A stretch of DNA of 64,000 nucleotides from Squalus acanthias. Its lineage: Eukaryota. Each line of letters opens with the position of its first letter. Position 1 is the stretch's first letter. The DNA lies in contig CM059432.1 in assembly GCA_030390025.1 (NCBI GenBank), positions 2,232,001 to 2,296,000 of the forward strand, in the 5' to 3' direction. The position numbers were made by a program, and so were the translations under genes. Shown here piece by piece: positions 4,058 through 56,894 of the stretch. Below the pieces are notes generated by a model. That model made no database searches. It saw nothing but the letters and a program-made list of their open reading frames with translations, and was not told where the DNA came from.

Positions 4058-4150
4058 AAAAGCAAAATACTGCGGATGCTGGAAATCTGAAATAAAAACA
4101 GAAAATTGCTGGAAACACTCAGCAGGTCAGGCAGCATCTGTGGAGAGAGA
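4058..4150. mobile_element. Penelope-like element terminal fragment
   Basis: aaaagcaaaatactgcggatgctggaaatctgaaat...ctcagcaggtcaggcagcatctgtggagagag; same family as the hairpin at 24088-24280. Confidence 0.55.
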
Positions 4151-4167
4151 GAGAGAGAGAATATCTC

Positions 4168-6957: not shown

Positions 6958-7149
6958 CTGTCAGTTGACATTGATTAATCTTGTGTTCAGTGAGATCAGT
7001 TAGTGAATCGAACACCTGGAGGCAGCTGTCACAGCTGTGCGGAACATCCTCATCTAATTCCTCGTCCTCCTGCTTTTGTTCCGGGAGCTTTTTCTCCTGA
7101 CGAGTCACTCGTCCTTCTTCACCTTCCCTTCCAAACTGTGACGGCAGTT
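6958..7149 (-). CDS. ZNF521: ZNF521 exon encoding an acidic linker and the first zinc finger
   Basis: Translates as (E)LPSQFGREGEEGRVTRQEKKLPEQKQEDEELDEDVPHSCDSCLQVFDSLTDLTEHKINQCQLT, matching the recalled ZNF521 segment HSCDSCLQVFESLSDITEHKINQCQLT. Acceptor ccgttcag|AA and donor ACAG|gtaaac; 192 nt, phase 1/1. The acceptor position is less certain than the donor. Confidence 0.92.
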
Positions 7150-9148: not shown

Positions 9149-9731
9149 AGGGCTGGATTTTGCGGGGTGGGGGTGGGGGGGGGGGGGGGTGTCAGTGGGT
9201 TTTGTGGGTTTCTCTTCCCCCCCCCCCCCACAAACAGGTTAGGACCCCGCTGTGAACCCGCCGCCACACGCCTTTCCCCGATGGCGGGTCTGTCAGCGCT
9301 GAGCAGACCCGACAGGCAGCGGCGGGAGACCCAATTCAGGTCATTAGTGACTTGTTTAGAGCCACTTGAGAATGATTTTCAGCTCACCTGCTGCATTTGA
9401 CAGCTCGCCCACAGGGTCCACGCTGGTCGTGGACCACGTCTGTCAAGCTGAGGCGGGAGTGCAGTGGCCATTGAATCAGCTGTTGAGTTGACAGCTTCAA
9501 ATGTCCAGTAAAAGCTCCCACCTTACAGAGATATCTTCCCTCAGCCACAAGCTCTTCCTCACTGCATTTCCACAACAGATTCAGCATGCTACAAGTCTCC
9601 ATCCAGTCTGACCTCATTACCTCTCTCACCATTGACAGATCGCTTCTGTCATCTCTACTTCACCTGCCATCTGTTCCATCAGTGAGAAGTCGCACAACAC
9701 CAGGTTATAGTCCAACAGCTTTATTTGAAAT

Positions 9732-9766
9732 CACAAGCTTTCGGAGCGCTGCTCCTTCATCAGGTG
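9732..9766 (-). ncRNA. Minimal type I hammerhead ribozyme motif
   Basis: The minus strand reads cac-CTGATGA-a-ggagc-agc-gctcc-GAAA-gc-TT-gtg. This gives the CUGANGA and GAAA core boxes, stem II ggagc/gctcc, stem I cac/gtg and a palindromic AGCT at stem III. Confidence 0.65.
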
Positions 9767-9777
9767 CTCCTTCACTT

Positions 9778-9813
9778 CACCTGACGAAGGAGCAGCCGCT
9801 CCGAAACCTTGTG
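9778..9813 (+). ncRNA. Minimal hammerhead ribozyme motif, second copy with a mutated stem III palindrome
   Basis: cac-CTGACGA-a-ggagc-agcc-gctcc-GAAA-cc-TT-gtg. Confidence 0.55.
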
Positions 9814-10614
9814 GTTTCAAATAAAGCTGTTGGACTATAACCTGGTGTTGTGCGACTTCTCACTTTTGTCCACCCCAGTCCAACACCGGCATCTCCACAT
9901 CACATCTATTCCATCAGCATGGGTGCCCTTTATACTGTCTCACCTTGGTCCTCAGAATCCCACCATGATCAGCCCCAACACCAGCAGCACCAACAACACC
10001 ACCAACCTTCTCTGCAATCAGCTGGTGCTGCACAGGACACAGGGCATCAGCACCCGACCACATTGCTGCCCAGGAGGCCAGGGATGGTCTCACCACGGTC
10101 AGATTTACTTCACTTGACGCTGTACACCCTGGCTGCCACATGATGTGCCAGGTTGGCACCACCCCACAGCAACACCATAAAGCATCCCTACAATGCCCAA
10201 GCCATTCCTTTCACACTCATCACCATTGCGGGGGGTACCGTTATGTCTCACCATTCACTGCAACTCACTAAGACACTTCCATAGGACACATAAATCTGAT
10301 CAAGAACGCAAAGTGTTGAAAATAAAGGTTTCAATGTTTGACAGCACATTAACAGAAACTTTACATGAACATTGCATAAAACACCCAAGTGCCTACCCTT
10401 GTGTGTTGTTAGTTGGTATGCTTGCACGAGGATGAGGATGAGTGTGAGGGGTGGCTAGTGAGATGGAAAGTGATAATATAGATAGAGAGGGATGGATGGA
10501 GGTGCAAGGTAAGTTGGTGTGAGTAAGGATGTGCAGGAGTAGGGTAGGGAAGGCAGAGTGATGGGGATGTGATGAGAAGCACAGCGGGATGAGGTTGAGT
10601 GTGGCTTTGTACTA

Positions 10615-10830
10615 ACGTTTCGTGATCTACTGAGATCATAGAAAGGTTTGCGCCACTGCACCCAGGTCCTCCTGACCACATCCCTGCTTGTGTCCTTCTC
10701 TGCTATGTGCAACCAGGCTGTGTTGATCTCCTGGGGAGGTCCCTTCCACCCATGGGAAGGGAAGAGGACCTCCCTGTGTGCATATGGAGAGCGTCATGGG
10801 AGAGCCTGGGTGCAGCCCTGTGCCTTTGTG
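10615..10830 (-). pseudogene. Myb/SANT-like DNA-binding domain remnant (Harbinger accessory ORF)
   Basis: AAPRLSHDAL, then a frameshift, then REVLFPSHGWKGPPQEINTAWLHIAEKDTSRDVVRRTWVQWRKPFYDL. This fits the AW..IA....S.....RT..Q.RK...DL pattern. A donor-like gttagt follows. Confidence 0.65.
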
Positions 10831-11170
10831 CAGTGATTGTCAGTGTTTGCAGCACCTCAATGCTGTAGAACACTGACAGCACAAATGTCAAAATAAAGGT
10901 GGCCGTGGTCCCTTTAAGGAAACTAGCTGATGATGACGTCACCAGACCCGCTTCCTCTAATTGGCCGGGAAACACGTTGGGCGGGGCTAAACAATCCCAA
11001 TCAAGGGAAAGTCATTTCAGAGGCCAGGATGGAGCCGACAGCGGGGTCGTGACCCGCCACCGACATCGCCCGACACGGACCCGCCGAGGTCAGCGAGCTC
11101 GCGGCCTGAGTGTTCACCCAGGCACAGGAAGACATGCTGCAGTGAACCAGCATACTGACTGCTTCCCTGT

Positions 11171-12680
11171 GGGGGGAGACACGGGGCAACGGGGGGAGAG
11201 ACACGGGGCAATGGGGGGAGAGACACGGGGCAACGGGGGGGGGGAGAGAGACACGGGGCAACGGGGGGAGAGAGAGACACGGGGCAACGGGGGGGGAGAG
11301 ACACGGGGCAACGGGGAGGGGAGACACGGGGCAACGGGGAGGGGAGACACGGGGCAACGGGGGGAGAGAGAGACACGGGGCAACGGGGGGAGAGAGAGAC
11401 ACGGGGCAACGGGGGGAGAGAGAGACACGGGGCAACGGGGGGAGAGAGAGACACGGGGCAACGGGGGGAGAGAGAGACACGGGGCAACGGGGGGAGAGAG
11501 AGACACGGGGCAACGGGGGGAGAGAGAGACACGGGGCAACGGGGGGAGAGAGAGACACGGGGCAACGGGGGGAGAGAGAGACACGGGGCAACGGGGAGAG
11601 AGACACGGGGCAACGGGGGGAGAGACACGGGGCAACGGGGGGGGAGAGACACGGGGCAACGGGGGGGAGACACGGGGCAACGGGGGGGAGAGAGACACGG
11701 GGCAACGGGGGGAGAGAGAGACACGGGGCAACGGGGAGAGAGAGACACGGGGCAACGGGGGGAGAGACACGGGGCAACGGGGGGAGAGACACGGGGCAAC
11801 GGGGGGGGAGAGACACGGGGCAACGGGGGGGAGACACGGGGCAACGGGGGGAGAGAGAGACACGGGGCAACGGGGAGAGAGAGACACGGGGCAACGGGGG
11901 GAGAGACACGGGGCAACGGGGGGGGAGAGACACGGGGCAACGGGGGGGAGACACGGGGCAACGGGGGGGAGAGAGACACGGGGCAACGGGGGGGGAGAGA
12001 GACACGGGGCAACGGGGGGGGAGAGAGACACGGGGCAACGGGGGGGGAGAGAGACACGGGGCAACGGGGGGGGAGAGAGACACGGGGCAACGGGGGGGGA
12101 GAGAGACACGGGGCAACGGGGGGGGAGAGAGACACGGGGCAACGGGGGGGGAGAGAGACACGGGGCAACGGGGGGGGAGAGAGACACGGGGCAACGGGGG
12201 GGGGAGAGAGACACGGGGCAACGGGGGGGGGAGACACGGGGCAACGGGGGGGAGAGACACGGGGCAACGGGGGGAGAGAGACGGGGCAACGGGGGGGAGA
12301 CACGGGGCAACGGGGGGAGACACGGGGCAACGGGGGAGAGAGACGGGGCAACGGGGGGGGGAGACACGCGGCAATGGGGAGAGACGGGGCAAGGGGGGGG
12401 AGAGACGGGGCAACGGGGGAGAGACACGGGGCAACGGGGGGGAGACACGGGGCAATGGGGGGGGAGACGGGGCAATGGGGGGAGGGGAGACGGGGCAATG
12501 GGGGGAGGGGAGACGGGGCAATGGGGGGAGGGGAGACGGGGCAATGGGGGGAGGGGAGACGGGGCAATGGGGGGAGGGGAGACGGGGCAATGGGGGGAGG
12601 GGAGACGGGGCAATGGGGGGAGGGGAGACGGGGCAATGGGGGGAGGGGAGACGGGGCAATGGGGGGAGGGGAGACGGGGC
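11171..12680 (+). repeat. G-rich minisatellite, units of about 21-29 bp (GAGACACGGGGCAAC-Gn)
   Basis: Directly visible tandem units with variable G-run and GA lengths. The unit changes to a 23-bp GGGGAGACGGGGCAATGGGGGGA form after about 12470. Confidence 0.95.
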
Positions 12681-13544
12681 CAGTGTAACCAGGAAGAAGT
12701 GACAGATTTCAGAATTGAGAGAGAGCAGATGAGGTACAACGGTCCTGTGGCTTCTATTCTGGGATGCACCGCGTGTTCTCAGTCTCTGTGCCTCCTGACC
12801 ACCTGCATCAATCTTGACCCAAATGGTCAGTTATGCATTCAACGAAGCAACGTATTCAGAAACTAAAGCAGCGACAGAAACAAACAAAAACTCTCTTAGT
12901 AAATAAAAGGGCATCAGTTGTAGCACTTTCAAACCTAGGCACAATGCAAGTCAACGCACATCATTGCTGGGGGCGAATCTGGGATTCAAACTCAACATTG
13001 CGCCTTAATGCTGATGTGATCAACCCAAGGGGAGGCTGAAGAGCTTTATTCCAGGGTCAGTTCGGAGTTGCAATCATAGATTTGCAAAAGATGCCGCCTT
13101 TCACACAGGGTCGACGCCAATGATCTATTTTATGGCCGTTGATTTTGTTTGTGGGTAATCTAAATTCTTTCCAAAGTCAAAACATTTCTGTTTGTGTCTT
13201 TATTTATTGCGGCAGCGAATGCCAGCTCGTTGGTAAGAGGTTACAGATACGGCACGACTCCCTACACTGGCAATAGTCCCAAGATTCAGCTGTGTAACCT
13301 GAGCTTAGGCAAGATTCCCCAAACTGAAGTGAAATTGGAAAAAAACATTCCAAAACCCAACACTTTAGGATCAGTGGCGCAATTCCTCTTCCCAAAACCA
13401 GCCTCCAACAAACAACACGCCACTGAACGAAATCATCGGGAGGAATTTCTCTGGTGGCGGTGTGTAGTAAGATCATAAAGACATTCTTTTCAATGAATTT
13501 AGGCTGTGGCTACTTATAATGGGCAAAGGAAGTCCTCCCCCAGT

Positions 13545-22659: not shown

Positions 22660-25600
22660 TAGTAATCTCCGGATTACTCCCGGTGCCATGAGCTAGTGAG
22701 TACAGAAATAAGAGGAGAGAGCAGATGAATGCGTGACTGGAGAGATGGTGCAGGAGGGAGGGCTTCAGATTCCTGGGGCATTGGGACCGGTTCTGGGGCA
22801 GGTGGGACCTGTACAAGCCGGACAGGTTGCACCTCAACAGAGCCGGGACCAATGTCCTCGCGGGGGGTGGGGGTTGGTTGCTAGTGCTGTTGGGGAGGGT
22901 TTAAACTAATTTGGCAGGGGGATGGGCACCAGGGTGTATAGAACGGAGAAACAAGGTGCACAAAGGATTGGGAGAGACAGAGAGCACTAGAGTGAGAAAT
23001 AGTAAGGTATTAGGTGGGGGCAGACTAAGAGAGAATACAAGAAGGTCTAAGACAGGCTTACAGTGTATGTGTGTAAACGCACGAAGCGTGGTAAATAAGG
23101 TTGGTGAGCTGCAGGTGCAAATAACCACACGAGAGCATGATGTGGCGATAACGGAGGCCTTACTCTCGGCGCGGACACAATGGGCCGAAATGGCCTCCTT
23201 CCGTGCTATAACTTTCTATGATTCTATGATTCTACCTGGCTCAAAAAAGGGCATGATTCGGGTATAAGGTGTTCCGGAAAGCATAGAAGCATAGAAGATA
23301 GGAGCAGGAGTAGGCCATTCGGCCCCTCGAGCCTGCTCCGCCATTTAATGAGATCATGGCTGATCATCCAAATTCAGTACCCTGTCCCTGCTTTCTCCCC
23401 ATATCATAGAAACATAGAAAATAGGTACAGGAGTAGACCATTCGGTCCTTCGAGCCTGCACCGCCATTCAATGCGTTCATGGCTGAACATGCTACCTCAG
23501 TACCCCATTCCTGCTTTCTCGCCATACCCCTTGATCCCCTTAGTTGTGAGTGTTATATCTAACTCCCTTTTGAATATATTTAGCGAACTGGCCTCAACAA
23601 CCTTCTGTGGAAGAGAATTCCATAGATTCACCACTCTCTGGGTGAAGAAGTTCCTCCTCAGCTCAGTCCTAAATGGCTTCCCCTTAATCCTTAGACTGTG
23701 ACCCCTGGTTCTAGTGACCCCACTAGTCACTAGTCACTGCCTGCCACTCGGAAAAAGACCGGTTTATTCCAACTCTTTGCTTCCTGTCTGCCAACCAGTT
23801 CTCTATCCAAATCAGTGCCTTACCCCCAATCCCATGTGCTTTATACAGATAGGGAAGGAAAGAAAGGAGTTGGGGTGGCAGTATTGGTTAAGGAGAATGT
23901 TACAGTGCTGGAGAGAGAGTATGTCCTGGAAGGGTCAAGGACAGAATCTGTTTGGTTAGAGTTGAGAAATAATAGAGGTGCCATTACACTACTAGATGTA
24001 TTCTATAGACCACCAACTAGTGGAAAAGATATAGAGAAGCATATTTGCAGGGAAATTACAGAGAGGTGCAAGAACTATAGAGTAGTGATAACACAGAAAA
24101 CGCTGGAAAAACTCAGCAGGCCAGGCAGCATCCGTGGAGAGAGAAACAGAGTTAATGTTTCAGGTCGACCTGAAACGTTAACTCTGTTTCTCTCTCCACG
24201 GATGCTGCCTGGCCTGCTGAGTTTTTCCAGCGTTTTCTGTTGTTATTTCGGATTTCCAGCATCCGCAGTATTTTGCTATCGTATAGGAGTAGTGATAATG
24301 GGGGACTTCAATTATCCTAATATAGACTGGGATAGTAATAGTGTAAAGGGCAGAGAGAGGGGGATGAATTTCTGAAGTGTGTTCAGGAGAACTTTCTTGA
24401 TCAGTATGTTTCCGGCCCAATGAGAAAGGAGGCATTGCTGGATCTGGTTCTGGGAAATGAGGTGGGTCAAGTGGAGCAAGTGTCAGTAAGTGAACATTTA
24501 GGGAACAGTGATCATAGTATCATAAGGTTTAGATTAGCTATGGAAAAGGACAGGGAGCAATCTAGAGTCAAAATACTTAACTGGAGGAGGGACAATTGCA
24601 ATGGGTTGAGAATGCACCTGGCCCGGGTAAATTGGAATCAAAGATTGGCAGGCAAAATTTTAAAGAGGAGCTGGTTTGGGTACAGTTGAGGTACATTCCC
24701 ACGAGGGGGAAAGGTAGGGCAACCAAAGTCAGAGCCCCCTGGATGACAAAAGAGATAAAGGGTAAGATGAAGCAGAAAAAAGTGGGTGTATGACAGATAT
24801 CAGGTTGAGAATACAAGAGAGAACCAGGCTGAATATAGAAAGTTCAGAGGGGAAGTGAAAAAGGAAATAAGAGGGGCAAAGAGAGAGTATGAGAATAGAT
24901 TGTCAGCTAACATAAAAGGGAGTCCAAAAGTCTTCTATAGGCATATAAATAGTAAACAGGTAGTAAGAGGAGGGGTGGGGCCAATTAGGGACCAAAGTGG
25001 AGACCTATGCATGGAGGCAGAGGGCATGACTGAGGTGCTAAATGAGTACTTTGCATCTGTCTTTACCAAGGAAGAAGATGCTGCCAAAGTCAAAGTGAAA
25101 GAGGAGGTAGTGGAGATACTGGATGGGATAAAATTTGATAAAGAGGAGGTGCTAGAAAGGCTGGCTGTACTTAAAGTAGATAAGTCACCAGGACCAGATG
25201 GGATGCATCCTAGGATGACGAGGGAAGTAAAGGTGGAAATTGCAGAGTTAGTGGCCATAATCTTCCAATCCTCCTTACATACGGGGGTGGTGCCAGAGGA
25301 CTGGAGAATTGCAAATGTTACACCTTTGTTCAAAAAAGGGTGTAAAGATAAACCCAGCAACTACAGGCCAGTCAGTTTAACCTCGGTAGTGGGGAAGCTT
25401 TTAGAAACGATAATCCGGGACAAAATTAACAGTCACTTGGACAAGTGTGGATTAATTAAGGAAAGCCAGCACAGATTTGTTAAAGGCAAATCGTGTTTAA
25501 CTAACTTGATCAAGTTTTTTGATGAGGTAAATGAGAGGGTTGATGAGGGCAATGCGGTTGACGTGGTGTACATGGATTTCCAAAAGGCGTTCGACAAAGT

Positions 25601-26762
25601 GCCACATAATAGGCTTGCCAACAAAGTTGAAGCCCATGGAATAAAAGGGACAGTGGCAGCATGGAGACGGAATTGGCTAAGTGACAGGAAACAGAGAGTA
25701 GTGGTGAACGGTTGTTTTTCGGACTGAAGGAAGGAATACAGTGGTGTTCCCCAGGGGTCGGCACTAGGACTACTGCTTTTCTTGATATATATTAATGACT
25801 TGGATGTGGGTGTACAGGGCACAATTTCAAAATTTGCAGATGACACAAAACTTAGAAGTATAGTGAACAGTGAGGAGGATAGTGATAGACTTCAAGAGGA
25901 CATAGACAGGCTGGTGGAATGGGCGGACACGTGGCAGATGAAATTTAACGCAGAAAATTGTGAAGTGATACATTATGGTAGGAAGAATGAGGAGGGGAAA
26001 TATAAACCAAGCGTACAATCCTAAAGGGGGTGCATGAACAGAGAGACCTGGGGGTATATGTGCTCAAATCGTTGAAAGTGGCAGGGCAGGTTGAGAAAGC
26101 AGTTAAAAAAAGCATAGGAGATCCTGGGCTTCATGAATAGAGGCATAGAGTACAAAAGCAAGGAAGTTATGATGAATCTTTATAAAACACTGGTTCAGCC
26201 TCAACTGGAGTATTGTGTCCAATTCTGGGCACCACACTTTAGGAAGGATGTGAAGGCCTCAGAGAGGGTGCAGAAAAGATTTACGAAAATGATTCCAGGG
26301 ATGAGGGACTTCAGTTATGTGGATAGACTGGAGAAGCTGGGGTTGTTCTCCTTAGAGCAGAGAAGATTGAGAGGAGATTTGATAGAGGTGTTCAAAATCA
26401 TGAGGGGTCTAGACAGAGTAGATAGAGAGAAACTGTTCCCATTGGCAGAAGGGTCGAGAACCAGAGGGACACAGATTTAAGGTGATTGGCAAAAGAACCA
26501 AAGGCAACGTAAGAAAAAACTTTTTTACGCAGCGAGTGGTTAGGATCTGGAATGCACTGCCTGAAAGGGTGGTGGAGGCAGACTCAATCATGGATCTCAA
26601 AAGGGAATTGGATAAGTACCTGAAGGAAAAACATTTGCAGGGCTACGGGGAAAGGGCGGGGGGAGTGGGACTAGCTGAAGTGCTCTTACAGAGAGCCGGC
26701 ACGGGCTCAACGGGCCGAATGGCCTCCTACTGTGCTGTAACCATTCTATGATTCTATGATAG
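22660..26762 (+). mobile_element. Near full-length decayed CR1 LINE (ORF1 esterase C-terminus, ORF2 endonuclease and RT, 3' tail)
   Basis: ORF1: VVISGLLPVP...WCRREGFRFLGHW...D.LHLN..G. Endonuclease: NARSV.NK..EL, MGDFNYPNIDW, SDH. RT: KSPGPDG, NYRPVSLTS, DFQKAFDKV, SKFADDTKL. Ends in (ATTCTATG)n. Carries stops, frameshifts and nested inserts at about 23281-23835 and 24092-24298. Confidence 0.93.
24088..24280. mobile_element. Penelope-like hairpin insertion inside the CR1 endonuclease region
   Basis: Palindrome 24088-24246 centred on caggtc|gacctg, plus an unpaired tail. Flanked by tatagagtagtgataa (24076-24091) and tataggagtagtgataa (24282-24298). Confidence 0.65.
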
Positions 26763-27094: not shown

Positions 27095-28345
27095 ATGGAC
27101 TTGCATTTTTATAGTGCATTTCACAACCACCGTACGTCCCAATGCGCTTTACAGCCAATTATGTACTTTTTGAAGTGTAGTCCCTGTTGTAATGTAGGAA
27201 ATGTGGCAGCCAAATTGCGCACAGCAAGCTCCCACAAACAGCGATGTGATAATGACCAGATCATCTGTTTTAGTTGATTCAGGGATAAATATTGGCCAGG
27301 ACACCGGGGAGAACTCCCCTCCTCTTGGAATCACAGAATCATAGAATGGTTACAGCACAGAAGGAGGCCATTCGGCCAGTTGAGCCTATGCCGACTCTCT
27401 GCAAGAGTACTTCAGCTAGTCCCACTCCCCCGCCCTTTCCCCGTAGCCCTGAAAATGTTTTCCTTCAGGTACTTATCCAATTCCCTTTTGAAAGCTGTGA
27501 TTGAGTCTGCCTCCACCGCCCTTTCAGGCAGTGCATTCCAGATCATAACCACTCGCTGCGTAAAAGAGTTTTTCCTCATGTGGCCTTTGGTTCTTCCGCC
27601 AATCACCTTAAATCTGTGTCCTCTGGTTCTTGACCCTTCCGCCTATGGGAACAGTTTCTCTGTCCAGACCCCTCATGATTTTGGACACCTCTATCAAATC
27701 TCCTCTCAACCTTCTCTGCTCCAAGGAGAACAACCCCAGCTTCTCCAGTCTCTCCACATAACTGAAGTCCCTCATCCCTGGAACCGTTTTGTAAATCTTT
27801 TCTGCACCCTCTCGAAGGCCTTCACATCCTTCCTAAAGTGCGGTGCCCAGAATTGGACACAATACTGCAGTTGAGGTCAGACCAGTGTTTTATAAAGATT
27901 CATCATAACTTCCTGCTTTATGAAGCCCAGGATCCCGTAAGCTTTTTTAACCACTTTCTTAACCTGCCCTGCCACCTTCAACGATTCGTGCACACATACC
28001 CAATGTCTCTGTTCCTGCATACCCTTTAGAATTTTAGAACTCTTTAGTTTATATTGCCTGTCCTCATTCTTCCTACCAAAATGTATTTATTCGCACTTTT
28101 CTGCATTAAATAGTTCTTTGAAATAGTGCCAGGTGATCTTTTACATCCATCTGAGAGGGCAGACAGAGCCTCGATTTAACGTCTCATCCAAAAGACGGCA
28201 CCTCCGACAGTGCCGCACTCCCTCAGCGCTGCACTGGAGTGTCAGCCTAGATTTTTTGTGCTCAAGTCTCATGGAGTGGGACTTGAACCCACAAACCTTC
28301 TGAACTACAGAGGCGAGGGTGCTACCCACTGAGCCACGGCTGACA
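27095..28345 (-). mobile_element. DeuSINE-like SINE split by a CR1 3' fragment (about 27328-28110)
   Basis: The SINE 3' half (27095-27325) and 5' half (28115-28345) join at cctctt/ctttgaaatagtgcc. Confidence 0.8.
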
Positions 28346-29927: not shown

Positions 29928-30835
29928 GAAAGAAAGACTTGCATTTCTATAGCGCCTTTCACCACCTCGACGTCCCAAAGCGCTTTACAGCCAATGAAGT
30001 ACTTTTTCAAGTGCAGTCACTGTTGTAATGTGGGAAACGCAGCACCCAATTTGCGCACAGCAAGCTCCCACAAACAGCAATGTGATAATGACCAGATAAT
30101 CTGTTTTAATGATGTTGATTGAGGGATAAATATTGGCCCCAGGACACCAGGGATAACTCCCCTGCTCTTCTTCGAAATAGTGGCTGTGGGATCTTTTACG
30201 TCCACCTGAGAGAGCAGACGGGGCTTCGGTTGAACGTCTCATTTGAAAGACGGCACCTCCGACAGTGTGGTGCTCCCTCAGTACTGCCCCTCCGACAGTG
30301 CAGCGCTCCCTCAGTACTGCCCCTCCGACAGTGCAGCGCTCCCTCAGTGCTGCCCCTCCCACAGTGCAGCACTCCCTCAGTACTGCCCCTCCGACAGTGC
30401 GGTGCTCCCTCAGTACTGCCCCTCCCACAGTGCAGCACTCCCTTAGTACTGCCCCTCCGACAGTGCGGAGCTCCCTCAGTACTGCCCCTCCGACAGTGCG
30501 GCGCTCCCTCAGTACTGCCCCTCCGACAGTGCGGCGCTCCCTCAGTACCGCCCCTCCGACAGTGCGGCGCTCCCTCAGTACTGCCCCTCCCAAAGTGCAG
30601 CACTCCCTCAGTACTGCCCCTCCCAAAGTGCGGAGCTCCCTCAGTACTGCCCCTCCGACAGTGCGGAGCTCCCTCAGTACTGCCCCTCCGACAGTGCGGC
30701 GCTCCCTCAGTACTGCTCCTCCGACAGTACGGCGCTCCCTCAGTACTGCCCCTCCGACAGTGCCGCGCTCCCTCAGTACTGCCCCTCCGACAGTGCGGCG
30801 CTCCCTCAGTACTGCGCTGGGAGGATTCAGCCTAG
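29928..30835 (-). mobile_element. DeuSINE-like SINE with an internal 33-bp tandem expansion
   Basis: SINE tail and core at 29928-30255, array at 30256-30815, residual SINE 5' sequence at 30816-30835. Confidence 0.85.
30256..30815 (-). repeat. 33-bp minisatellite, about 17 units
   Basis: Plus-strand unit CCCTCCGACAGTGCGGCGCTCCCTCAGTACTGC; the spurious ORFs over it have an 11-aa period. Confidence 0.95.
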
Positions 30836-31749
30836 GTTACAGCCCAGAAACAGGCCATTCGGCCCAACTGATAAAATGTCACTCTAGCTTTTTATAAACT
30901 GACTAAGCCAGCGTTTTGATGACTGCAACAATCCCACATTGATTCCTTCACTCAACTTTAAGAAAACAAGAGTGGAATATTTGCAGAGATTAAGGAAACG
31001 ACAAATGGTCAAAAACTGGACGGTTCTAATCAAGGGCTCCGTAACTTTCTTTCCCTTTCTGGTGTGGAGCAACTTGCTGTGGATTTCCAGCATTGGGTGC
31101 TTTCGTTCCAGAGTCTAGCAGTTGCGATTTTCCTTTTCCACATTGCGAGGTTGATTGTTTTTGCTGTGGTTTAAATGAAGGGTCAATTTCAAGGCTTCAT
31201 TCACAGCCCTTAATCTTCCTCTGCCTCAGGTTAGAAAGTACGCAACACGAGGTCCTCCAAATACACTTTTTATTATTAATAATAATATACTTGGCTGAAG
31301 CTTTGATTTAAAAGCCGACCAGATCCACTTACTGGGCTGAGACTCCGCTTGATCGCGATAACATCTGGCTTGCTCACCTCCAACAAACACACAAAGTCTC
31401 AATATTTCACATTCAGTACTGCAACTTAGCAATCCACATCATTAACACAAAAATAATCACTTGCACCATGCATCCTACATTACAACAGTGACCGCACTTC
31501 AAAAAGTACTTCATTGGCTGTAAAGCGCTTTGGGACGTCCGGTGGTCGTGAAAGGCGCTATAGAAATGCAAGTCTGTCTTTCTTTCTCTACTCGGATCCA
31601 GCACTAACCAGGACCAGTATTTGTTTAATATTGGCAGAGGTGTAACCGTGAACGACACTATATTGGTCACGTGAACCTGGATTTTAACGCCAATGTTTGA
31701 ATATTATTCCAGGGTGCAAGGCACACCTCTGCTCAAAATTATTGGGTCC

Positions 31750-33102: not shown

Positions 33103-33854
33103 ATAAGCGTTAATGTTAACAGGTCCTGTTGTAAAGTCAGCTTTTAACAAGTGACTGCATAATGGTTTTATCACCGCTTACTTGATGAGAATGGTCAAGT
33201 TCATTTCACGGTACTTTACTGCAGAATATTTAGGATTTTATGCTGCACAAAGTGGGAGCATAATTGAGATAATTTAAAAATAAAATATCAGTGCAGGCAT
33301 TACCTTCAGGCTGGGGCTCTTTACTCTAGAAAAGAGAAGACCGAGAGGTTACCTGATAGACGACTCTAAGATTATGAAAGGGTTTGATGGAGTAAACATA
33401 GAGTGTGCTGAGAATGCTACCACAAGGAGTAGTTGAGGCAAATAGCATTTAAGGGGAAGCTAGATAAACACAAGGGGGAAAGGAATAGAAGGACATGCTG
33501 CTAGGGTGAGATGAAGTGGGGTGGGAGGAGGCTGGTGTGGATGGAGCGGCATGGACCAGTTGGGCCGAATGGCCTGTTTCCGTGCTGTAAATTCGATGTA
33601 ATTCCACATGTGTGGGCGAGGAAGGAGCCAGGATTGATCCTAGGTCTGTGCTGAGTTAGCTGAAAGAGGCACTCAGTCCTCACGACAATAGTCCTCAGCT
33701 CCACTGGACAAGAGGAGTGGAGAGGGGCAGGTGGGAAGTGGGGGAGCAATCAGCCAAGGTTACCACTCCTGATCATCAGGGCATCACTATCGTCTAACAA
33801 AATACAATGTCAAGCGTCACGCCTACAGGCGGGTCACCTGGGCCAGCGCTTTTA

Positions 33855-34078
33855 TTTTTAATATTCATTCACGGAATGTGGGCATCGCTGGCAAGGCCGG
33901 CATTTATTGCCCGTCCCTAATTGCCCCTTGAGAAGGTGGTGGTGAGCCGCCTTCTTGAACCGCTGCAGTCCGTCTGGTGAAGGTACTCCCACAGTGCTGT
34001 TAGGGAGGGAGTTCCAGAATTCTGACCCAGCGACGATGAAGGAATGACCGATATATTTCCAAGTCAGGCTGGTGCGTG
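33855..34078 (-). mobile_element. Family B LINE 3' fragment abutting the large minisatellite
   Basis: Encodes SFIVAGSEFWNSLPNS...FKKAAHHHLLKG. Confidence 0.75.
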
Positions 34079-37000
34079 ACTGTCGGAGGGGCAGTACTGA
34101 GGGAGCGCCGCACTGTCGGAGGGGCAGTACTGAGGGAGCGCCGCACTGTCGGAGGGGCAGTACTGAGGGAGTGCTGCACTGTCGGAGGGGCAGTACTGAG
34201 GGAGCGCTGCACTGTCGGAGGGGCAGTACTGAGGGAGCGCTGCACTGTCGGAGGGGCAGTACTGAGGGAGCGCCGCACTGTCGGAGGGGCAGTACTGAGG
34301 GAGCGCCGCACTGTCGGAGGGGCAGTACTGAGGAAGCGCCGCACTGTCGGAGGGGCAGTACTGAGGGAGCGCCGCACTGTCGGAGGGGCAGTACTGAGGA
34401 AGCGCCGCACTGTCGGAGGGGCAGTACTGAGGGAGCGCCGCACTGTCGGAGGGGCAGTACTGAGGGAGCGCCGCACTGTCGGAGGGGCAGTACTGAGGGA
34501 GCGCCGCACTGTCGGAGGGGCAGTACTGAGGGAGCGCCGCACTGTCGGAGGGGCAGTACTGAGGGAGCGCCGCACTGTCGGAGGGGCAGTACTGAGGGAG
34601 CGCCGCACTGTCGGAGGGGCAGTACTGAGGGAGCGCTGCACTGTCGGAGGGTCAGTACTGAGGGAGCACCGCACTGTCTGAGGGACAGTACTGAGGGAGC
34701 ACCGCACTGTCTGAGGGACAGTACTGAGGAAGCGCCGCACTGTCGGAGGGGCAGTACTGAGGAAGCGCCGCACTGTCGGAGGGTCAGTACTGAGGGAGCG
34801 CTGCACTGTCGGAGGGTCAGTACTGAGGGAGCGCTGCACTGTCGGAGGGGCAGTACTGAGGAAGCGCCGCACTGTCGGAGGGGCAGTACTGAGGGAGCAC
34901 CGCACTGTCTGAGGGACAGTACTGAGGGAGCACCGCACTGTCTGAGGGACAGTACTGAGGAAGCGCCGCACTGTCGGAGGGTCAGTACTGAGGGAGCGCT
35001 GCACTGTCGGAGGGTCAGTACTGAGGGAGCGCTGCACTGTCGGAGGGGGCAGTACTGAGGAAGCGCCGCACTGTCGGAGGGGCAGTACTGAGGGAGCACC
35101 GCACTGTCGGAGGGGCAGTACTGAGGGAGCACCGCACTGTCGGAGGGGCAGTACTGAGGGAGCGCCGCACTGTCGGAGGGGCAGTATTGAGGAAGTGCTG
35201 CACTGTCGGAGGGGCAGTATTGAGGGAGCGCTGCACTGTCGGAGGGGCAGTACTGAGGGAACGCTGCATTGTCAGAGGGGAGGTTCTGAGGGAGTGCTGA
35301 ACTGTCGGAGGGGCAGTACTGAGGGAGCGCTGCACTGTCGGAGGGGCAGTACTGAGGGAGCACTGCACTGTCGGAGGGGCAGTACTGAGGGAGCACCGCA
35401 CTGTCGGAGGGTAGGCTCTGAGGAAGTGCTGCACTGTCGGAGGGGCAGCACTGAGGGAGCGCCGCACTGTCGGGGGGGCGGTACTGAGGGAGCGCCGCAC
35501 TGTCGGAGGGGCGGTACTGAGGGAGCGCCGCACTGCCGGAGGTGCAGTACTGAGGGAGCGCCGCACTGTCGGAGGGGAGGTTCTGAGGGAGCGCTGCACT
35601 GTCGGAGGGGCAGTACTGAGGGAGCGTCGCACTGTCGGAGGGGCAATACTGAGGGAGCGCCGCACTGTCGGAGGGGCAATACTGAGGGAGCGCCACACTG
35701 TCGGAGGGGCAATACTGAGGGAGCGCTGCACTGTCGGAGGGGCAATACTGAGGGAGCGCTGCACTGTCGGAGGGGAAGTACTGAGGGAGCGCCGACACTG
35801 TCGGAGGGACAGTACTGAGGGAGCGCTGCACTGTGGGAGGGGCAGTACTGAGGGAGCGCCGCACTGTGGGAGGGGCAGTACTGAGGGAGCGCGCACTGTG
35901 GGAGGGGCAGTACTGAGGGAGCGCGCACTGTCGGAGGGGCAGTACTGAGGAAGTGCCGCACTGCCGGAGGTGCAGTACTGAGGGAGCGCCGCACTGTCGG
36001 AGGGGAGGTTCTGAGGGAGCGCTGCACTGTCGGAGGGGCAGTACTGAGGGAGCACTGCACTGTCGGAGGGGCAATACTGAGGGAGCGCCGCACTGTCGGA
36101 GGGGCAATACTGAGGGAGCGCCACACTGTCGGAGGGGCAATACTGAGGGAGCGCCGCACTGTCGGAGGGGCAATACTGAGGGAGCGCTGCACTGTCGGAG
36201 GGGCAATACTGAGGGAGCGCCACACTGTCGGAGGGGCAATACTGAGGGAGCGCCGCACTGTCGGAGGGGCAATACTGAGGGAGCGCCACACTGTCGGAGG
36301 GGCAATACTGAGGGAGCGCCGCACTGTCGGAGGGGCAGTACTGAGGGAGCACCGCACTGTCGGAGGGGCAGTACTGAGGGAGCGCTGCACTGTCGGAGGG
36401 GCAGTACTGAGGGAGCACTGCACTGTCGAAGGGACAGTACTGAGGGAGCGCTGCACTATCGGAGGGGCAATACTGAGGGAGCGCCGCACTGTCGGAGGGG
36501 CAGTACTGAGGGAGCACCGCACTGTTAAAGGGGCTGGCCTGAGGGAGTGCTGCACATTTGGAGGGGCAATACTGAGGGAGGGCTGCACTGTCGGAGGGGA
36601 AGTACTGAGGGAGCGCCGACACTGTCGGAGGGACAGTACTGAGGGAGCGCTGCACTGTGGGAGGGGCAGTACTGAGGGAGCGCCGCACTGTGGGAGGGGC
36701 AGTACTGAGGGAGCGCGCACTGTGGGAGGGGCAGTACTGAGGGAGCGCGCACTGTGGGAGGGGCAGTACTGAGGGAGCGCGCACTGTGGGAGGGGCAGTA
36801 CTGAGGGAGCGCGCACTGTCGGAGGGGCAGTACTGAGGAAGTGCTGCACTGTGGGAGGGGCAGTACTGAGGGAGCGCGCACTGTCGGAGGGGCAGTACTG
36901 AGGAAGTGCTGCACTGTCGGAGGGGACGTTCTGAGGAAGCGCCGCACTGTCGGAGGGGAGGTTCTGAGGGAGCGCCGCACTGTCGGAGGGGCAGTACTGA

Positions 37001-38930
37001 GGGAGCGCCGCACTGTCGGAGGGGCAGTACTGAGGGAGCGCTGCACTGTCGGAGGGGCAGTACTGAGGGAGCACTGCACTGTCGAAGGGACAGTACTGAG
37101 GGAGCGCTGCACTATCGGAGGGGCAGTACTGAGGGAGCGCTGCACTGTCGGAGCAGAGGTTCTGAGGGAGCGCTGCACTTTTGGAGGGGTAGTACTCAGG
37201 AAGTGCTGCACTGTCGGAGGGGCAGTACTGAGGGAGTGCTGCACTGTCGAAGGGACAGTACTGAGGGAGCGCTGCACTATCGGAGGGGCAGTACTGAGGG
37301 AGCGCTGCACTGTCGGAGCAGAGGTTCTGAGGGAGCGCTGCACTGAGGAAGTGCTGCACTCTTGGAGGGGCAGTACTGAGGGAGCACCGCACTGTCGGAG
37401 GGGCAGTACTGAGGAAGTGCTGCACTGCCGGAGGGGCAGTACTGAGGGAGCGCTGCACTGTCGGAGGGGCAGTACTGAGGGAGCGCTGCACTGTCGGAGG
37501 GGAGGTTCTGAGGGAGCGCTGCACTTTTGGAGGGGTAGTACTGAGGAAGTGCTGCACTGTCGGAGGGGCAGCACTGAGGGAGCGCCGCACTGTCGGGGAG
37601 GCGGTAATGAGGGAGCGCCGCACTGTCGGAGGGGCGGTACTGAGGGAGCGCCGCACTGCCGGAGGTGCAGTACTGAGGGAGCGCTGGGCTGTCGGAGGGG
37701 AGGTTCTGAGGGAGCGCCACACTGTCGGAGGGGCAATACTGAGGGAGCGCCGCACTGTCGGAGGGGCAGTACTGAGGGAGCACCGCACTGTTAAAGGGGT
37801 TGTCCTGAGGGAGTGCTGCACATTTGGAGGGGCAGTACTGAGGGAGTGCTGACTGTCGGAGGGGCAATACTGAGGGAGCGCTGCACTGTCGGAGGGACAG
37901 TACTGAGGGAGCGCTGCACTGTGGGAGGGGCAGTACTGAGGGAGCGCCGCACTGTGGGAGGGGCAGTACTGAGGGTGCGCGCACTGTGGGAGGGGCAGTA
38001 CTGAGGGAGCGCTGCACTGTGGGAGGGACAGTACTGAGGGAGCGCGCACTGTCGGAGGGACAGTACTGAGGGAGCGCGCACTGTCGGAGGGGCAGTACTG
38101 AGGAAGTGCTGCACTGTCGGAGGGGACGTTCTGAGGAAGCGCCGCACTGTCGGAGGGGAGGTTCTGAGGGAGCGCCGCACTGTCGGAGGGGCAGTACTGA
38201 GGGAGCGCCGCACTGTCGGAAGGGCAGTACTGAGGGAGCGCTGCACTGTCGGAGGGGCAGTACTGAGGGAGCACTGCACTGTCGGAGGGACAGTACTGAG
38301 GGAGCGCTGCACTGTCGGAGGGGCAGTACTGAGGGAGCGCTGCACTGTCGGAGGGGAGGTTCTGAGGGAGCGCTGCACTTTTGGAGGGGTAGTACTCAGG
38401 AAGTGCTGCACTGTCGGAGGGGCAGTACTGAGGGAGTGCTGCACTGTCGAAGGGACAGTACTGAGGGAGCGCTGCACTATCGGAGGGGCAGTACTGAGGG
38501 AGCGCTGCACTGTCGGAGCAGAGGTTCTGAGGGAGCGCTGCACTGAGGAAGTGCTGCACTCTTGGAGGGGCAGTACTGAGGGAGCACCGCACTGTCGGAG
38601 GGGCAGTACTGAGGAAGTGCTGCACTGCCGGAGGGGCAGTACTGAGGGAGCGCTGCACTGTCGGAGGGGCAGTACTGAGGGAACGCTGCATTGTCAGAGG
38701 GGAGGTTCTGAGGGAGTGCTGAACTGTCAGAGGGGCAGTACTGAGGGAGCGCTGCACTGTCGGAGGGGCAGTACTGAGGGAGCACCGCACTGTCGGAGGG
38801 GAGGTTCTGAGGGAGCGCCGCACTGTCGGAGGTGCAATACCGAGGGAGCGCCGCGCTGTCGGAGGGGCAGTACTGAGGGAGCGCCACACTGTCGGAGGGG
38901 CAGTACTGAGGGAGTGCTGCACTGTCGGAG
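34079..38930 (+). repeat. 33-bp minisatellite, about 147 units, with higher-order duplications
   Basis: Unit CACTGTCGGAGGGGCAGTACTGAGGGAGCGCCG; runs directly into the SINE core at 38931. Confidence 0.97.
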
Positions 38931-39260
38931 GTGCCGTCTTTCGGAGGAGACCTTAAACCGAGGCTATGTGCTGTCAGGTGGAAGTAAAAGATCCCAGGGC
39001 ACTATTTTGAAGAAGAGCAGGGGAGTTATCTCCGGTGTCCTGGTCAATATTTATCTCTCAATCAACATCACTGAAAACAGATTATCTTGTCATTATCACA
39101 TTGCTGTTTGTGGGAGCTTGCTGTGCGCAAATTGGCTGCCGCGTTTCCTACATTACAACAGTGACTACACTTCAAAACAGTACTTCATTGGCTGTGAAGC
39201 GCTTTGGGACGTCCTGAGGTTGTGAAAGGCGCTGTAGAAATACAAATCTTTCTTTTTCTT
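38900..39260 (+). mobile_element. DeuSINE-like SINE core and tail, continuous with the array
   Basis: ggaggtgccgtctttcggaggagacc...aaaggcgctgtagaaatacaaatcttt. Confidence 0.85.
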
Positions 39261-55669: not shown

Positions 55670-55709
55670 CTTTCAGCGATCTTGGCTTCGCTTGCTTTCG
55701 GCGAGACAT
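55670..55709 (-). CDS. ZNF521: ZNF521 start-codon exon, coding part (exon 55670-55710)
   Basis: The minus strand reads ttttttgcgtgtag|G ATG TCT CGC CGA AAG CAA GCG AAG CCA AGA TCG CTG AAA G|gtaagt, i.e. MSRRKQAKPRSLK. This is the ZNF521 N-terminus as I recall it. Canonical AG/GT sites; 40 coding nt; phase-1 donor. Confidence 0.95.
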
Positions 55710-56283
55710 CCTACACGCAAAAAATACCCTTCTTCAAGACTTGGGTCTGGGTTTTCTCTCTCCTCTCTTATTAAAAGCCCCCTTGACACGCTCCCACTGC
55801 TCTGCTGTCCTCAGTAAATGTTGCTCTCTCTGTCTCTTAGAATTAAAATAAGCAGTTCATTGTTTTTTCTGCCTTTCCCTTATTGCCCTCTTCCAAAAAA
55901 AGCGGCACCCAGCAAATACTGGAGGTTTTTTTTGCGTGTGATAAAGAAGTAAAAGACTTTCTCTTAAATTCCACCATCAGAAGGAGGGGATATTTTTGCA
56001 ATGAGAGAGAATGCACTGCAGGGAGAAAAAGAAAAAAAATCCAGACGTTTTGAAAATTAAAAAAAAACTGGAAGCTTAGGATACTTTTTTCTGCATTCTA
56101 AAACTAAAGATTCGCATCCTGTCTTTTTTTTGGTGGGGGGGGGGGTGACTTGCTATATAAATATATACATTTTAAAAAAAATCCTTGCTGGAATCGGTCG
56201 CTTGCAAAGGGTTCTAAGTCTTATCGGTGGAGTGGAAGCAGAACTGAGCGAGGCGATTCCCCCACTCCCTCCTCATCACAAAC

Positions 56284-56650
56284 CTGCAAGGTCTTGGACT
56301 GCGCTGTCGCTCCGGTAGTCCACATAATAATGGAAAATTTAAACAAGGCCCCAAACCCATCAGCATGGCTCCAGAGGGGGGCCCTTCCCCACAGGGACAC
56401 GCACTGTACGTAATCACTGAGGAAATCATTGTCAGCCTCAGAGTGCACGCCTGGTGCATGATGAAACCTAAAGCCGGCAGCAAGATCTGGACTCCTGGAT
56501 TCCCCGTCCCCAAAAAAAATCAGGATCTGGAGCTTTGTGCTGCTGTTGCTGTTGCTGTTGCAGCCACTGCTCCTGCCCTTTTTTTGCTTCTCTTTTTCTC
56601 TCTCTCTCTCTCTTCCCACTTTTAAAAGCATCTTTCAAAGCTGCACTCTT
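56284..56650 (-). other. ZNF521: Putative ZNF521 first (5'UTR) exon; 5' boundary approximate
   Basis: Non-repetitive sequence with GA- and GCA-rich runs, ending in ACCTTGCAG|gtttgt about 570 bp upstream of the acceptor of the ATG exon. Confidence 0.65.
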
Positions 56651-56890
56651 CCCCCTTCTGGCTGCAATTCATATGCTGTCTATTTCAGTGTCCTTTTATT
56701 TTCACCACAGCTTTTTATTCCACCCCCACCACGCCAGTAGCACAAAATTTCAGTTTTTTTTCTCTCACAAGGAATTAAAAAAATATATGTTTGTTTCTCA
56801 TTTTCAGAAGGATTCTCAGTTTTTTTTCTCTCTCTGATGTTGTTGATGCCCAGATGTATTCTGCTGGCTCTCTGAAAGTACTTTCTGAGT
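56650..56890 (-). promoter_or_regulatory. Putative ZNF521 proximal promoter region
   Basis: Positional inference only: unique sequence between the putative first exon and the AT-rich satellite. Confidence 0.35.
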
Positions 56891-56894
56891 GGGA

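What the first reader, a model, noticed from the sequence alone, without database searches (positions are those of the whole stretch)
9668..9917. Back-to-back hammerhead ribozyme motifs in a short hairpin retro-insertion inside a ZNF521 intron
Seen: an inverted repeat with arms of about 86 bp, an unpaired tail of about 38 bp, and a 15-bp flanking duplication with one mismatch. Each arm carries a CUGANGA/stem II/GAAA core. The copy with the intact AGCT stem-III palindrome is on the minus strand, the strand of the ZNF521 pre-mRNA. Established: Penelope-like elements carry minimal type I hammerheads with palindromic loop 3 and often leave inverted terminal copies. Inference: this is a non-autonomous, ribozyme-bearing mini-element. 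In the pre-mRNA, the long hairpin probably outcompetes ribozyme folding and prevents cleavage, while forming a dsRNA substrate.
Basis: partly seen in the sequence, partly recalled or inferred. Interest (0 to 1): 0.7.

Follow-up and report, generated by a model that had tools for sequence, protein, structure and literature searches.

The report
Truncated Penelope fold-back insertion in intron
This hairpin with two hammerhead ribozyme motifs is real, but it is most likely an ordinary, dead, back-to-back leftover of a known jumping gene (a Penelope-like retroelement) in a vertebrate zinc-finger gene intron, not a new kind of mobile element.

Summary
The anatomy is confirmed: arms 9681-9766 and 9778-9864 (4 differences), an 11-nt spacer, a 38-nt one-sided tail and a 15-bp duplication. 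Contigs in 3 of 4 runs laid join 9667 to 9903, which is the empty site, so the duplication is a true target-site duplication. Both arms fit the published minimal-hammerhead core of Penelope-like elements (PLEs); only the minus-strand copy keeps the palindromic G-C. Inverted truncated copy + 30-40-nt tail + TSD is the described PLE insertion pattern.

The 'non-autonomous mini-element' reading is not supported. Related copies fold back at many different junctions, summed contig depth at this junction is 0.2-1.9% of that 8 nt away, and a second, unrelated family in the same intron shows the same anatomy with only half a ribozyme.

The two motifs lie on opposite strands, so they cannot dimerise in one RNA; the hairpin disfavours the ribozyme fold by about 45 kcal/mol. 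A direct link to an RT/GIY-YIG ORF was not obtained, and ZNF521 is a recalled name. This scan noted the same pattern earlier on other DNA, including this genome. Verdict: ordinary PLE relic.

The parts
9668..9682 (.). Left copy of the 15-bp target-site duplication; last 2 nt shared with the left arm
   Evidence: Related host-repeat copies read A at 9673 in over 98% of summed depth in X5, X6 and X17, so the mismatch is a later change in this copy.
9681..9766 (-). Left arm: inverted, 5'-truncated PLE terminal repeat without tail; sense on the host pre-mRNA strand
9732..9766 (-). Minimal type I hammerhead: helix I 3 bp, CUGAUGA+A, helix II 5 bp with 3-nt loop, GAAA, palindromic G-C, U16.1, U17 at 9735
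   Evidence: fits the consensus of PMC4209133 Fig. S3
9767..9777 (+). 11-nt spacer; probably the family's own sequence upstream of helix I, so the right arm is simply about 11 nt longer
   Evidence: Loose ends behind 9766 in X6 (347 records, agreement only 0.42) begin with the reverse complement of the spacer apart from one base
9778..9864 (+). Right arm: 5'-truncated PLE terminal repeat, sense on the strand opposite to the host gene
9777..9814 (+). Second minimal hammerhead, decayed: C-C instead of the palindromic pair, one extra base in loop 2
   Evidence: Related copies read G at 9807 in X5, X6 and X17 (96% or more of depth) and A at 9814 in X5 and X17 but only 33% in X6.
9865..9902 (+). 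38-nt one-sided PLE 'tail'; its end is a terminus of the family
   Evidence: Records that run loose behind 9902: X6 480 (agreement 0.35), X17 26 (0.41), X21 3 (0.76).
9903..9917 (.). Right copy of the target-site duplication
   Evidence: Joint 9667->9903 in 5, 16 and 1 contigs of X5, X6 and X17, none in X21; loose ends before 9903 (106 and 236 records) equal the left flank
9300..10400 (.). Older multi-copy host repeat into which the element inserted (true limits not mapped); possibly Harbinger-type
   Evidence: Depth in 30 of 30 bins in X5, X6 and X17, 12 of 30 in X21. A weak Myb_DNA-bind_5 hit at 10458-10793(-), E 0.031, is below the curated cut-off: a lead only.
55670..55709 (-). First coding exon of the host zinc-finger gene (ZNF521 by recall)
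   Evidence: ATG and GT donor seen in the sequence
6958..7149 (-). Next recognisable coding exon (one zinc finger); AG acceptor and GT donor, phase-compatible with the first

Best explanation
One dead-on-arrival insertion of an endonuclease-positive Penelope-like retroelement. SHOWN: an insert of 235 nt beyond a once-present 15-nt target, made of two head-to-head, 5'-truncated copies of a very abundant terminal repeat, one ending 38 nt beyond the other. INFERRED, by analogy to Anolis PAc: the element's RT/GIY-YIG protein nicked both target strands about 15 nt apart and primed cDNA on each. One cDNA started at the tail end and one 38 nt inside it (two internal start sites). Both stopped just upstream of the hammerhead and were joined, and gap filling made the TSD. 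Self-priming fold-back of one cDNA with endonucleolytic resolution is an equally published route and is not excluded. The hammerheads are passengers of the terminal repeat. Both arms keep sequence 5' of the cleavage site, so the template was uncleaved RNA. In host pre-mRNA the antisense arm is transcribed first and the single sense motif is paired as it emerges; it is predicted not to cleave, and the element is predicted to be removed with the intron.
For: Anatomy. Empty site in 3 of 4 runs, tail-end terminus, 9 different fold-back joints among 15 shown, and low depth at this junction. Published PLE pattern: inverted 5'-truncated copy plus 30-40-bp tail at one end (PMC8557442); inverted pLTR, 31-bp tail and 8-10-bp TSD (PMC3846280); two RT start sites bracketing the tail, both strands cut and extended, uncleaved RNA as template, ribozyme inactive without protein (PMC11167929); dual min-HHRs on opposite strands 100-700 bp apart already reported (PMC4209133). 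A second family in the same intron has the same anatomy (24076-24298). Folding.
Against: No RT or GIY-YIG ORF could be tied to this terminal repeat: none was recognised among the 46 frames of 150 aa or more in the window (read by eye), and four protein searches and four DNA scans gave no linked ORF. The 15-bp TSD is longer than the 8-10 bp in the rotifer paper. The inner arm end (9864/9681) was not among the loose-end rows shown (2,007 rows hidden). All 4 arm differences lie in the inner 37 of 86 nt (P about 0.03, post hoc), which a single insertion followed by uniform decay does not predict. Contig depths are not copy numbers.
Confidence: 0.88

Rival explanations
1. A non-autonomous hairpin mini-element: a fixed fold-back master is transcribed and mobilised in trans by PLE protein.
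For: pLTR sequences alone sufficed for mobilisation in trans in a rotifer (PMC3846280). One X5 contig has a junction 3 nt shorter at 9767, and another folds back at 9766 with a different spacer, so junctions near helix I recur.
Against: Depth at 9767 is 0.2-1.9% of that at 9759 in three runs, and 9 of 9 fold-back joints shown differ. The second family's fold-back lost its CUGANGA half. An RNA that is almost wholly duplex should be a poor template (inference).
Confidence: 0.07
2. The hairpin has been kept because it acts on the host transcript (edited dsRNA, small-RNA source, or a conditionally released ribozyme).
For: The palindromic G-C copy is on the pre-mRNA strand, and the outer 49 bp of the arms are identical.
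Against: One intact and one decayed arm leaves a 50% chance for that orientation. Helix I is cut to 3 bp. The intron holds 201 inverted pairs, 11 with a gap under 3 kb, one of 822 nt. The insert sits inside another repeat, 2.5 kb from the exon. No conservation data.
Confidence: 0.03
3. A MITE or foldback DNA transposon, or a miRNA-type hairpin, whose hammerhead look is incidental.
For: Long inverted arms; sub-threshold Rfam miRNA hits (best 65.7 bits against a gathering score of 249).
Against: One-sided tail, head-to-head geometry with variable junctions, a 15-bp TSD, and an exact fit to the min-HHR consensus with 0 hits in 100 shuffles.
Confidence: 0.02

Closest known systems
Insertion units of endonuclease-positive Penelope-like elements (PMC8557442 passages and section 15; PMC3846280 passages and section 9)
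   Same: 5'-truncated copy, adjacent inverted copy head to head, 30-40-nt tail on one side only, TSD, hammerhead in the terminal repeat.
   Different: Extreme truncation: no ORF left, 235 nt in all. The TSD is 15 bp against the 8-10 bp reported in Adineta. Clade (Poseidon or Neptune) not determined.
Metazoan minimal type I hammerheads of PLEs (PMC4209133 main text parts 1-2 of 4; supplement file 2 parts 1-2 of 3)
   Same: CUGANGAH, G10.1-C11.1, GAAA, palindromic 15.2-16.2, UH, short helix I, AU-rich 3' flank. The same G-C-U-U junction is listed for Chrysemys and Philodina; the helix I letters resemble the lamprey Poseidon motif. Opposite-strand pairs 100-700 bp apart are described there.
   Different: No shark or chimaera name occurs in the searchable supplement file (file 1 could not be searched). 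Helix II is 5 bp with a 3-nt loop. The cores here are 18 nt apart.
PAc, Poseidon element of Anolis carolinensis (PMC11167929 parts 1-2 of 4; supplements not opened)
   Same: Tail length matches the spacing of two RT start sites; both-strand priming explains two arms; uncleaved template.
   Different: In PAc the ORF starts at helix II. Here the frame from the core ATG stops after 9 codons in the left arm, and no ORF link was found.
Non-LTR retrozymes (bioRxiv 10.64898/2026.07.22.740005, parts 1 and 3 of 5 and passages; supplements closed)
   Same: Non-coding, PLE-related, type I hammerhead; reported in the one chondrichthyan genome sampled.
   Different: Retrozymes are head-to-tail tandems with a ribozyme in each unit on one strand; this is head to head with one motif per strand.

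Membership tests
EN+ Penelope-like element (insertion relic) | Terminal repeat belongs to an element with PLE-type RT and GIY-YIG ORF | tested here: inconclusive
No such ORF recognised in the window; no genome held; peptide searches from the arm+tail frame gave only an 80-aa unnamed relative and three repetitive chance hits; 0 matches in four DNA scans.
EN+ Penelope-like element (insertion relic) | Minimal type I hammerhead in the terminal repeat | tested here: met
   Among the 40 variant rows shown the only core position listed is 9759, the variable N7; 154 rows were hidden, so full core conservation is not shown.
EN+ Penelope-like element (insertion relic) | Inverted 5'-truncated copy adjacent head to head, variable truncation | tested here: met
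   9 different fold-back joints among 15 shown
EN+ Penelope-like element (insertion relic) | 30-40-nt tail at one end only | tested here: met
   38 nt; family terminus at 9902
EN+ Penelope-like element (insertion relic) | Target-site duplication with an empty site | tested here: met
   Joint 9667->9903 in 3 of 4 runs. These are probably paralogous copies of the host repeat, not shown to be the orthologous locus.
Non-autonomous hairpin mini-element | Many copies share one junction and one length | tested here: not met
   Depth at 9767 is 0.2-1.9% of that at 9759 and the joints are heterogeneous. Caveat: summed contig depth, from runs not shown to be this species.
Non-LTR retrozyme | Head-to-tail tandem units with a hammerhead in each on one strand | tested here: not met
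   One motif per strand; no other copy of this family in the window
Canonical hammerhead families in Rfam 15 | Covariance-model match | tested here: not met
   0 matches at gathering score; no hammerhead among 10 hits at E up to 10
Active self-cleaving ribozyme | Cleavage after U17 | not testable with these tools
   Only folding was computed; one search lists no pile of molecule ends, but it held no RNA raw reads
MITE / foldback DNA transposon | Terminal inverted repeats flush with both TSD copies | tested here: not met
   38-nt tail lies between the right arm and the TSD

The most novel reading that the evidence does not exclude
Fold-back PLE insertions are self-silencing: the antisense arm locks the sense ribozyme, which PLE protein or a second transcript could otherwise activate. 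Selection would then purge solo sense-strand copies from introns but tolerate hairpin copies, and this genome's very many copies would be a natural test of whether PLE hammerheads cleave host pre-mRNA in vivo.
Probability: 0.07. Interest if true: 0.55.

Novelty: new member of a known kind. Interest (0 to 1): 0.14.

Why it matters
As it stands it matters little: one more relic of a described insertion pattern, in a lineage where intronic PLEs are abundant (30% of whale shark PLEs lie in introns; bioRxiv 10.1101/443036, passage). Its use is as a clean, short record of the PLE reaction, with two start points 38 nt apart, an exact TSD and an empty site. Collected genome-wide, such records could separate twin priming from self-priming fold-back, which PMC8557442 lists as unresolved. 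An orientation census could also test whether PLE hammerheads are ever active on host transcripts.

Tried and rejected
Own-genome search: none held, so there is no copy count or orientation census.

DNA pattern scans: 0 matches in viral contigs, metagenomes and GTDB genomes; these collections are not eukaryotic genomes, so this says nothing about the family.

Protein route to the RT: the 39-aa frame through right arm and tail gave 4 hits. Three are repetitive proteins judged chance, and one (P0004, 80 aa, no Pfam family, single JGI contig) is a frame through a related repeat copy. Searches for longer proteins found none; the near-length search returned only P0004.

Rfam miRNA hits: generic hairpin scores far below their gathering scores. 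Two-strand cofolding of the minus-strand motif did not give a hammerhead dimer, but the program does not model the core, so it is uninformative.

Expression and editing: no RNA holder listed. X17 is RNA only by guess and pools many copies; its A>G/T>C places (10/16, against 8/11 and 9/10 in X5 and X6) cannot be read as editing. X21 laid only 22 reads and was of little use. I chose 4 of the 24 runs listed.

My first idea, that the spacer was a template-jump copy of element or flank, was dropped after the loose ends behind 9766 matched it. The Atlas did not name the host gene. The search by sequence of earlier findings gave nothing.

Literature searches listed no paper on this particular family; Repbase and Dfam could not be consulted, so it may already be catalogued.

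Full report
OBSERVATION. The structure is as described. Two arms, 9681-9766 and 9778-9864, are reverse complements with 3 substitutions and 1 inserted base; an 11-nt spacer separates them, a 38-nt tail (9865-9902) follows the right arm, and 9668-9682 / 9903-9917 is a 15-nt direct repeat with one mismatch. The stretch folds at z -20.9, with 0 of 200 shuffles as stable. Each arm carries a hammerhead core. A descriptor that I wrote from the published minimal-hammerhead consensus finds these two and nothing else in 64 kb, and nothing in 100 shuffles. Rfam has no matching model, as expected for minimal motifs. The minus-strand copy has the palindromic G-C at 15.2-16.2 but only a 3-bp helix I; the plus-strand copy has C-C there and a 4-bp helix I.

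HOST. Two minus-strand coding exons, 55709-55670 and 7149-6958, have AG/GT ends and compatible phase. The element lies between them, 2,519 nt from the acceptor. ZNF521 is my recall from the peptides; Pfam shows only a sub-threshold C2H2 finger and the Atlas gave no such name. 'Shark-type genome' is recall plus earlier notes; no call names the organism.

RELATED SEQUENCES. No genome is held, so I laid 4 of 24 listed runs on 9300-10400 at 80% likeness. X5, X6 and X17 laid 37,169, 71,191 and 3,487 contigs over all 30 bins; X21 laid only 22 reads. The flanks are therefore a multi-copy repeat too. Five results follow, all.
(a) A joint 9667->9903 appears in 5, 16 and 1 contigs, and loose ends before 9903 equal the left flank. 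This is the empty site with one copy of the 15-mer. Related copies read A at 9673, so the duplication was perfect when made. These are probably paralogous host-repeat copies.
(b) 480, 26 and 3 records run loose behind 9902 (agreement 0.35, 0.41, 0.76): the tail end is a terminus of the family.
(c) Loose ends behind 9766 (347 records, agreement 0.42) begin with the reverse complement of the spacer apart from one base, so the spacer is probably the element's own upstream sequence.
(d) Of 15 joints shown (313 hidden), 9 join the left arm to the right arm, spacer or tail, each at a different place; most drop one or both hammerhead cores.
(e) Summed depth at the junction base 9767 is 0.4%, 1.9% and 0.2% of that at 9759.
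Contig depth is not copy number and the runs are not shown to be this species, but (d) and (e) point away from an amplified hairpin master. Among the 40 variant rows shown (154 hidden) the only core position is N7.

INTERNAL CONTROL. A second fold-back of an unrelated family sits in the same intron at 24076-24298: 79-nt arms with a palindromic centre, a tail of about 35 nt, a 12-nt exact (about 16-nt gapped) flanking repeat, interrupting what looks like a LINE endonuclease frame (CR1-type by recall). It keeps only the GAAA-C-G-U-U half of a minimal hammerhead. A solo copy of that family ending at the same tail lies at 4061-4157. The anatomy is therefore generic and does not depend on a whole ribozyme.

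MECHANISM. Shown: the geometry, the TSD and the variable junctions. Inferred: PLE protein nicks both strands about 15 nt apart and primes two cDNAs from two internal start sites 38 nt apart. This follows the Anolis PAc results, where both strands are cut and extended, the tail lies between two RT start sites and uncleaved RNA is the template (PMC11167929). Both arms keep helix I and the core 5' of the cleavage site, which fits an uncleaved template. Self-priming fold-back (PMC3846280) is the alternative and suits the palindromic second element better. One loose thread: all 4 arm differences lie in the inner 37 nt (P about 0.03, post hoc). Chance, homogenisation of the outer stem, or two templates could explain it.

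EFFECT ON THE HOST RNA. The motifs are on opposite strands, so no transcript carries two. On the pre-mRNA the antisense arm comes first. Helix II pair probability is about 0 with 0-600 nt of flank, and forcing the ribozyme fold costs 45.5 kcal/mol. Even unlocked, monomeric minimal hammerheads showed no cleavage (PMC4209133) and the PAc motif needed protein. The duplex could be edited, but the intron has 201 inverted pairs at E<1e-20, 11 of them with a gap under 3 kb. Editing and cleavage were not testable.

COMPARISON. Inverted truncated copy plus one-sided 30-40-bp tail is described as typical of PLEs (PMC8557442). Inverted pLTR, 31-bp tail and TSD are described in Adineta (PMC3846280). Opposite-strand min-HHR pairs were reported in 2014 (PMC4209133), and the left arm fits that paper's consensus position by position (compared by eye). 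It is not a retrozyme, which is a head-to-tail tandem (bioRxiv 10.64898/2026.07.22.740005). Four of five PLE features were met; the RT/GIY-YIG link stayed inconclusive. Searches listed no paper on this family; papers not named here were seen as listings only. PMC8969392 was seen as passages. Repbase, Dfam, bioRxiv supplements and one supplement file of PMC4209133 were not seen and may hold this family.

EARLIER NOTES. Unchecked notes of this scan reached the same reading on other DNA, including this genome. My reading was recorded before I saw them and they are not counted as support.

VERDICT. Real, well preserved and ordinary: a truncated fold-back PLE insertion (confidence 0.88). New member of a known kind; interest 0.14.

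Noticed in passing
window 24076-24298: Second fold-back insertion of an unrelated family: 79-nt arms (97.5%), palindromic centre, tail of about 35 nt, flanking repeat, inside a LINE endonuclease-like frame; keeps half a minimal hammerhead. RT link untested.
   Followed up: partly
window 4061-4157 (-): Solo 5'-truncated copy of that second family, ending at the same tail end and starting in a CT run.
   Followed up: partly
window 9856-9878 (+) and 24233-24259 (+): In both families the arm end and tail look like a 3' splice site (pyrimidine tract ending in CAG; a branch-like CTCAC in the first). In the first family the loose-end consensus behind 9902 starts TG in X6 and X17, which would complete an ATG (low agreement). 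This may mark a 5'-UTR intron spanning the hammerhead, as PMC8557442 suggests for PLEs. It is antisense to the host gene in both. By eye only.
   Followed up: no
window 9862->9904: Three X5 contigs join the arm end, without tail, to the target sequence (shorter side 23 nt). Possibly an independent insertion at the same site of the host repeat, or a chance joint.
   Followed up: no
window about 9150-10900: The flanks are a multi-copy repeat; a weak Myb/SANT-like hit at 10458-10793(-) (E 0.031, below cut-off) hints at a Harbinger-type element.
   Followed up: partly
window 11000-12800, 29985-30900, 33850-39200, 56000-60000: Long G+C-rich minisatellite arrays that give spurious long open frames, and a very A+T-rich, G-skewed tract at 56-60 kb.
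   Followed up: no
window 25943-26760 / 27330-28111: 822-nt inverted pair, 86% identical, about 570 nt apart in the same intron: a far larger potential duplex than the finding.
   Followed up: no
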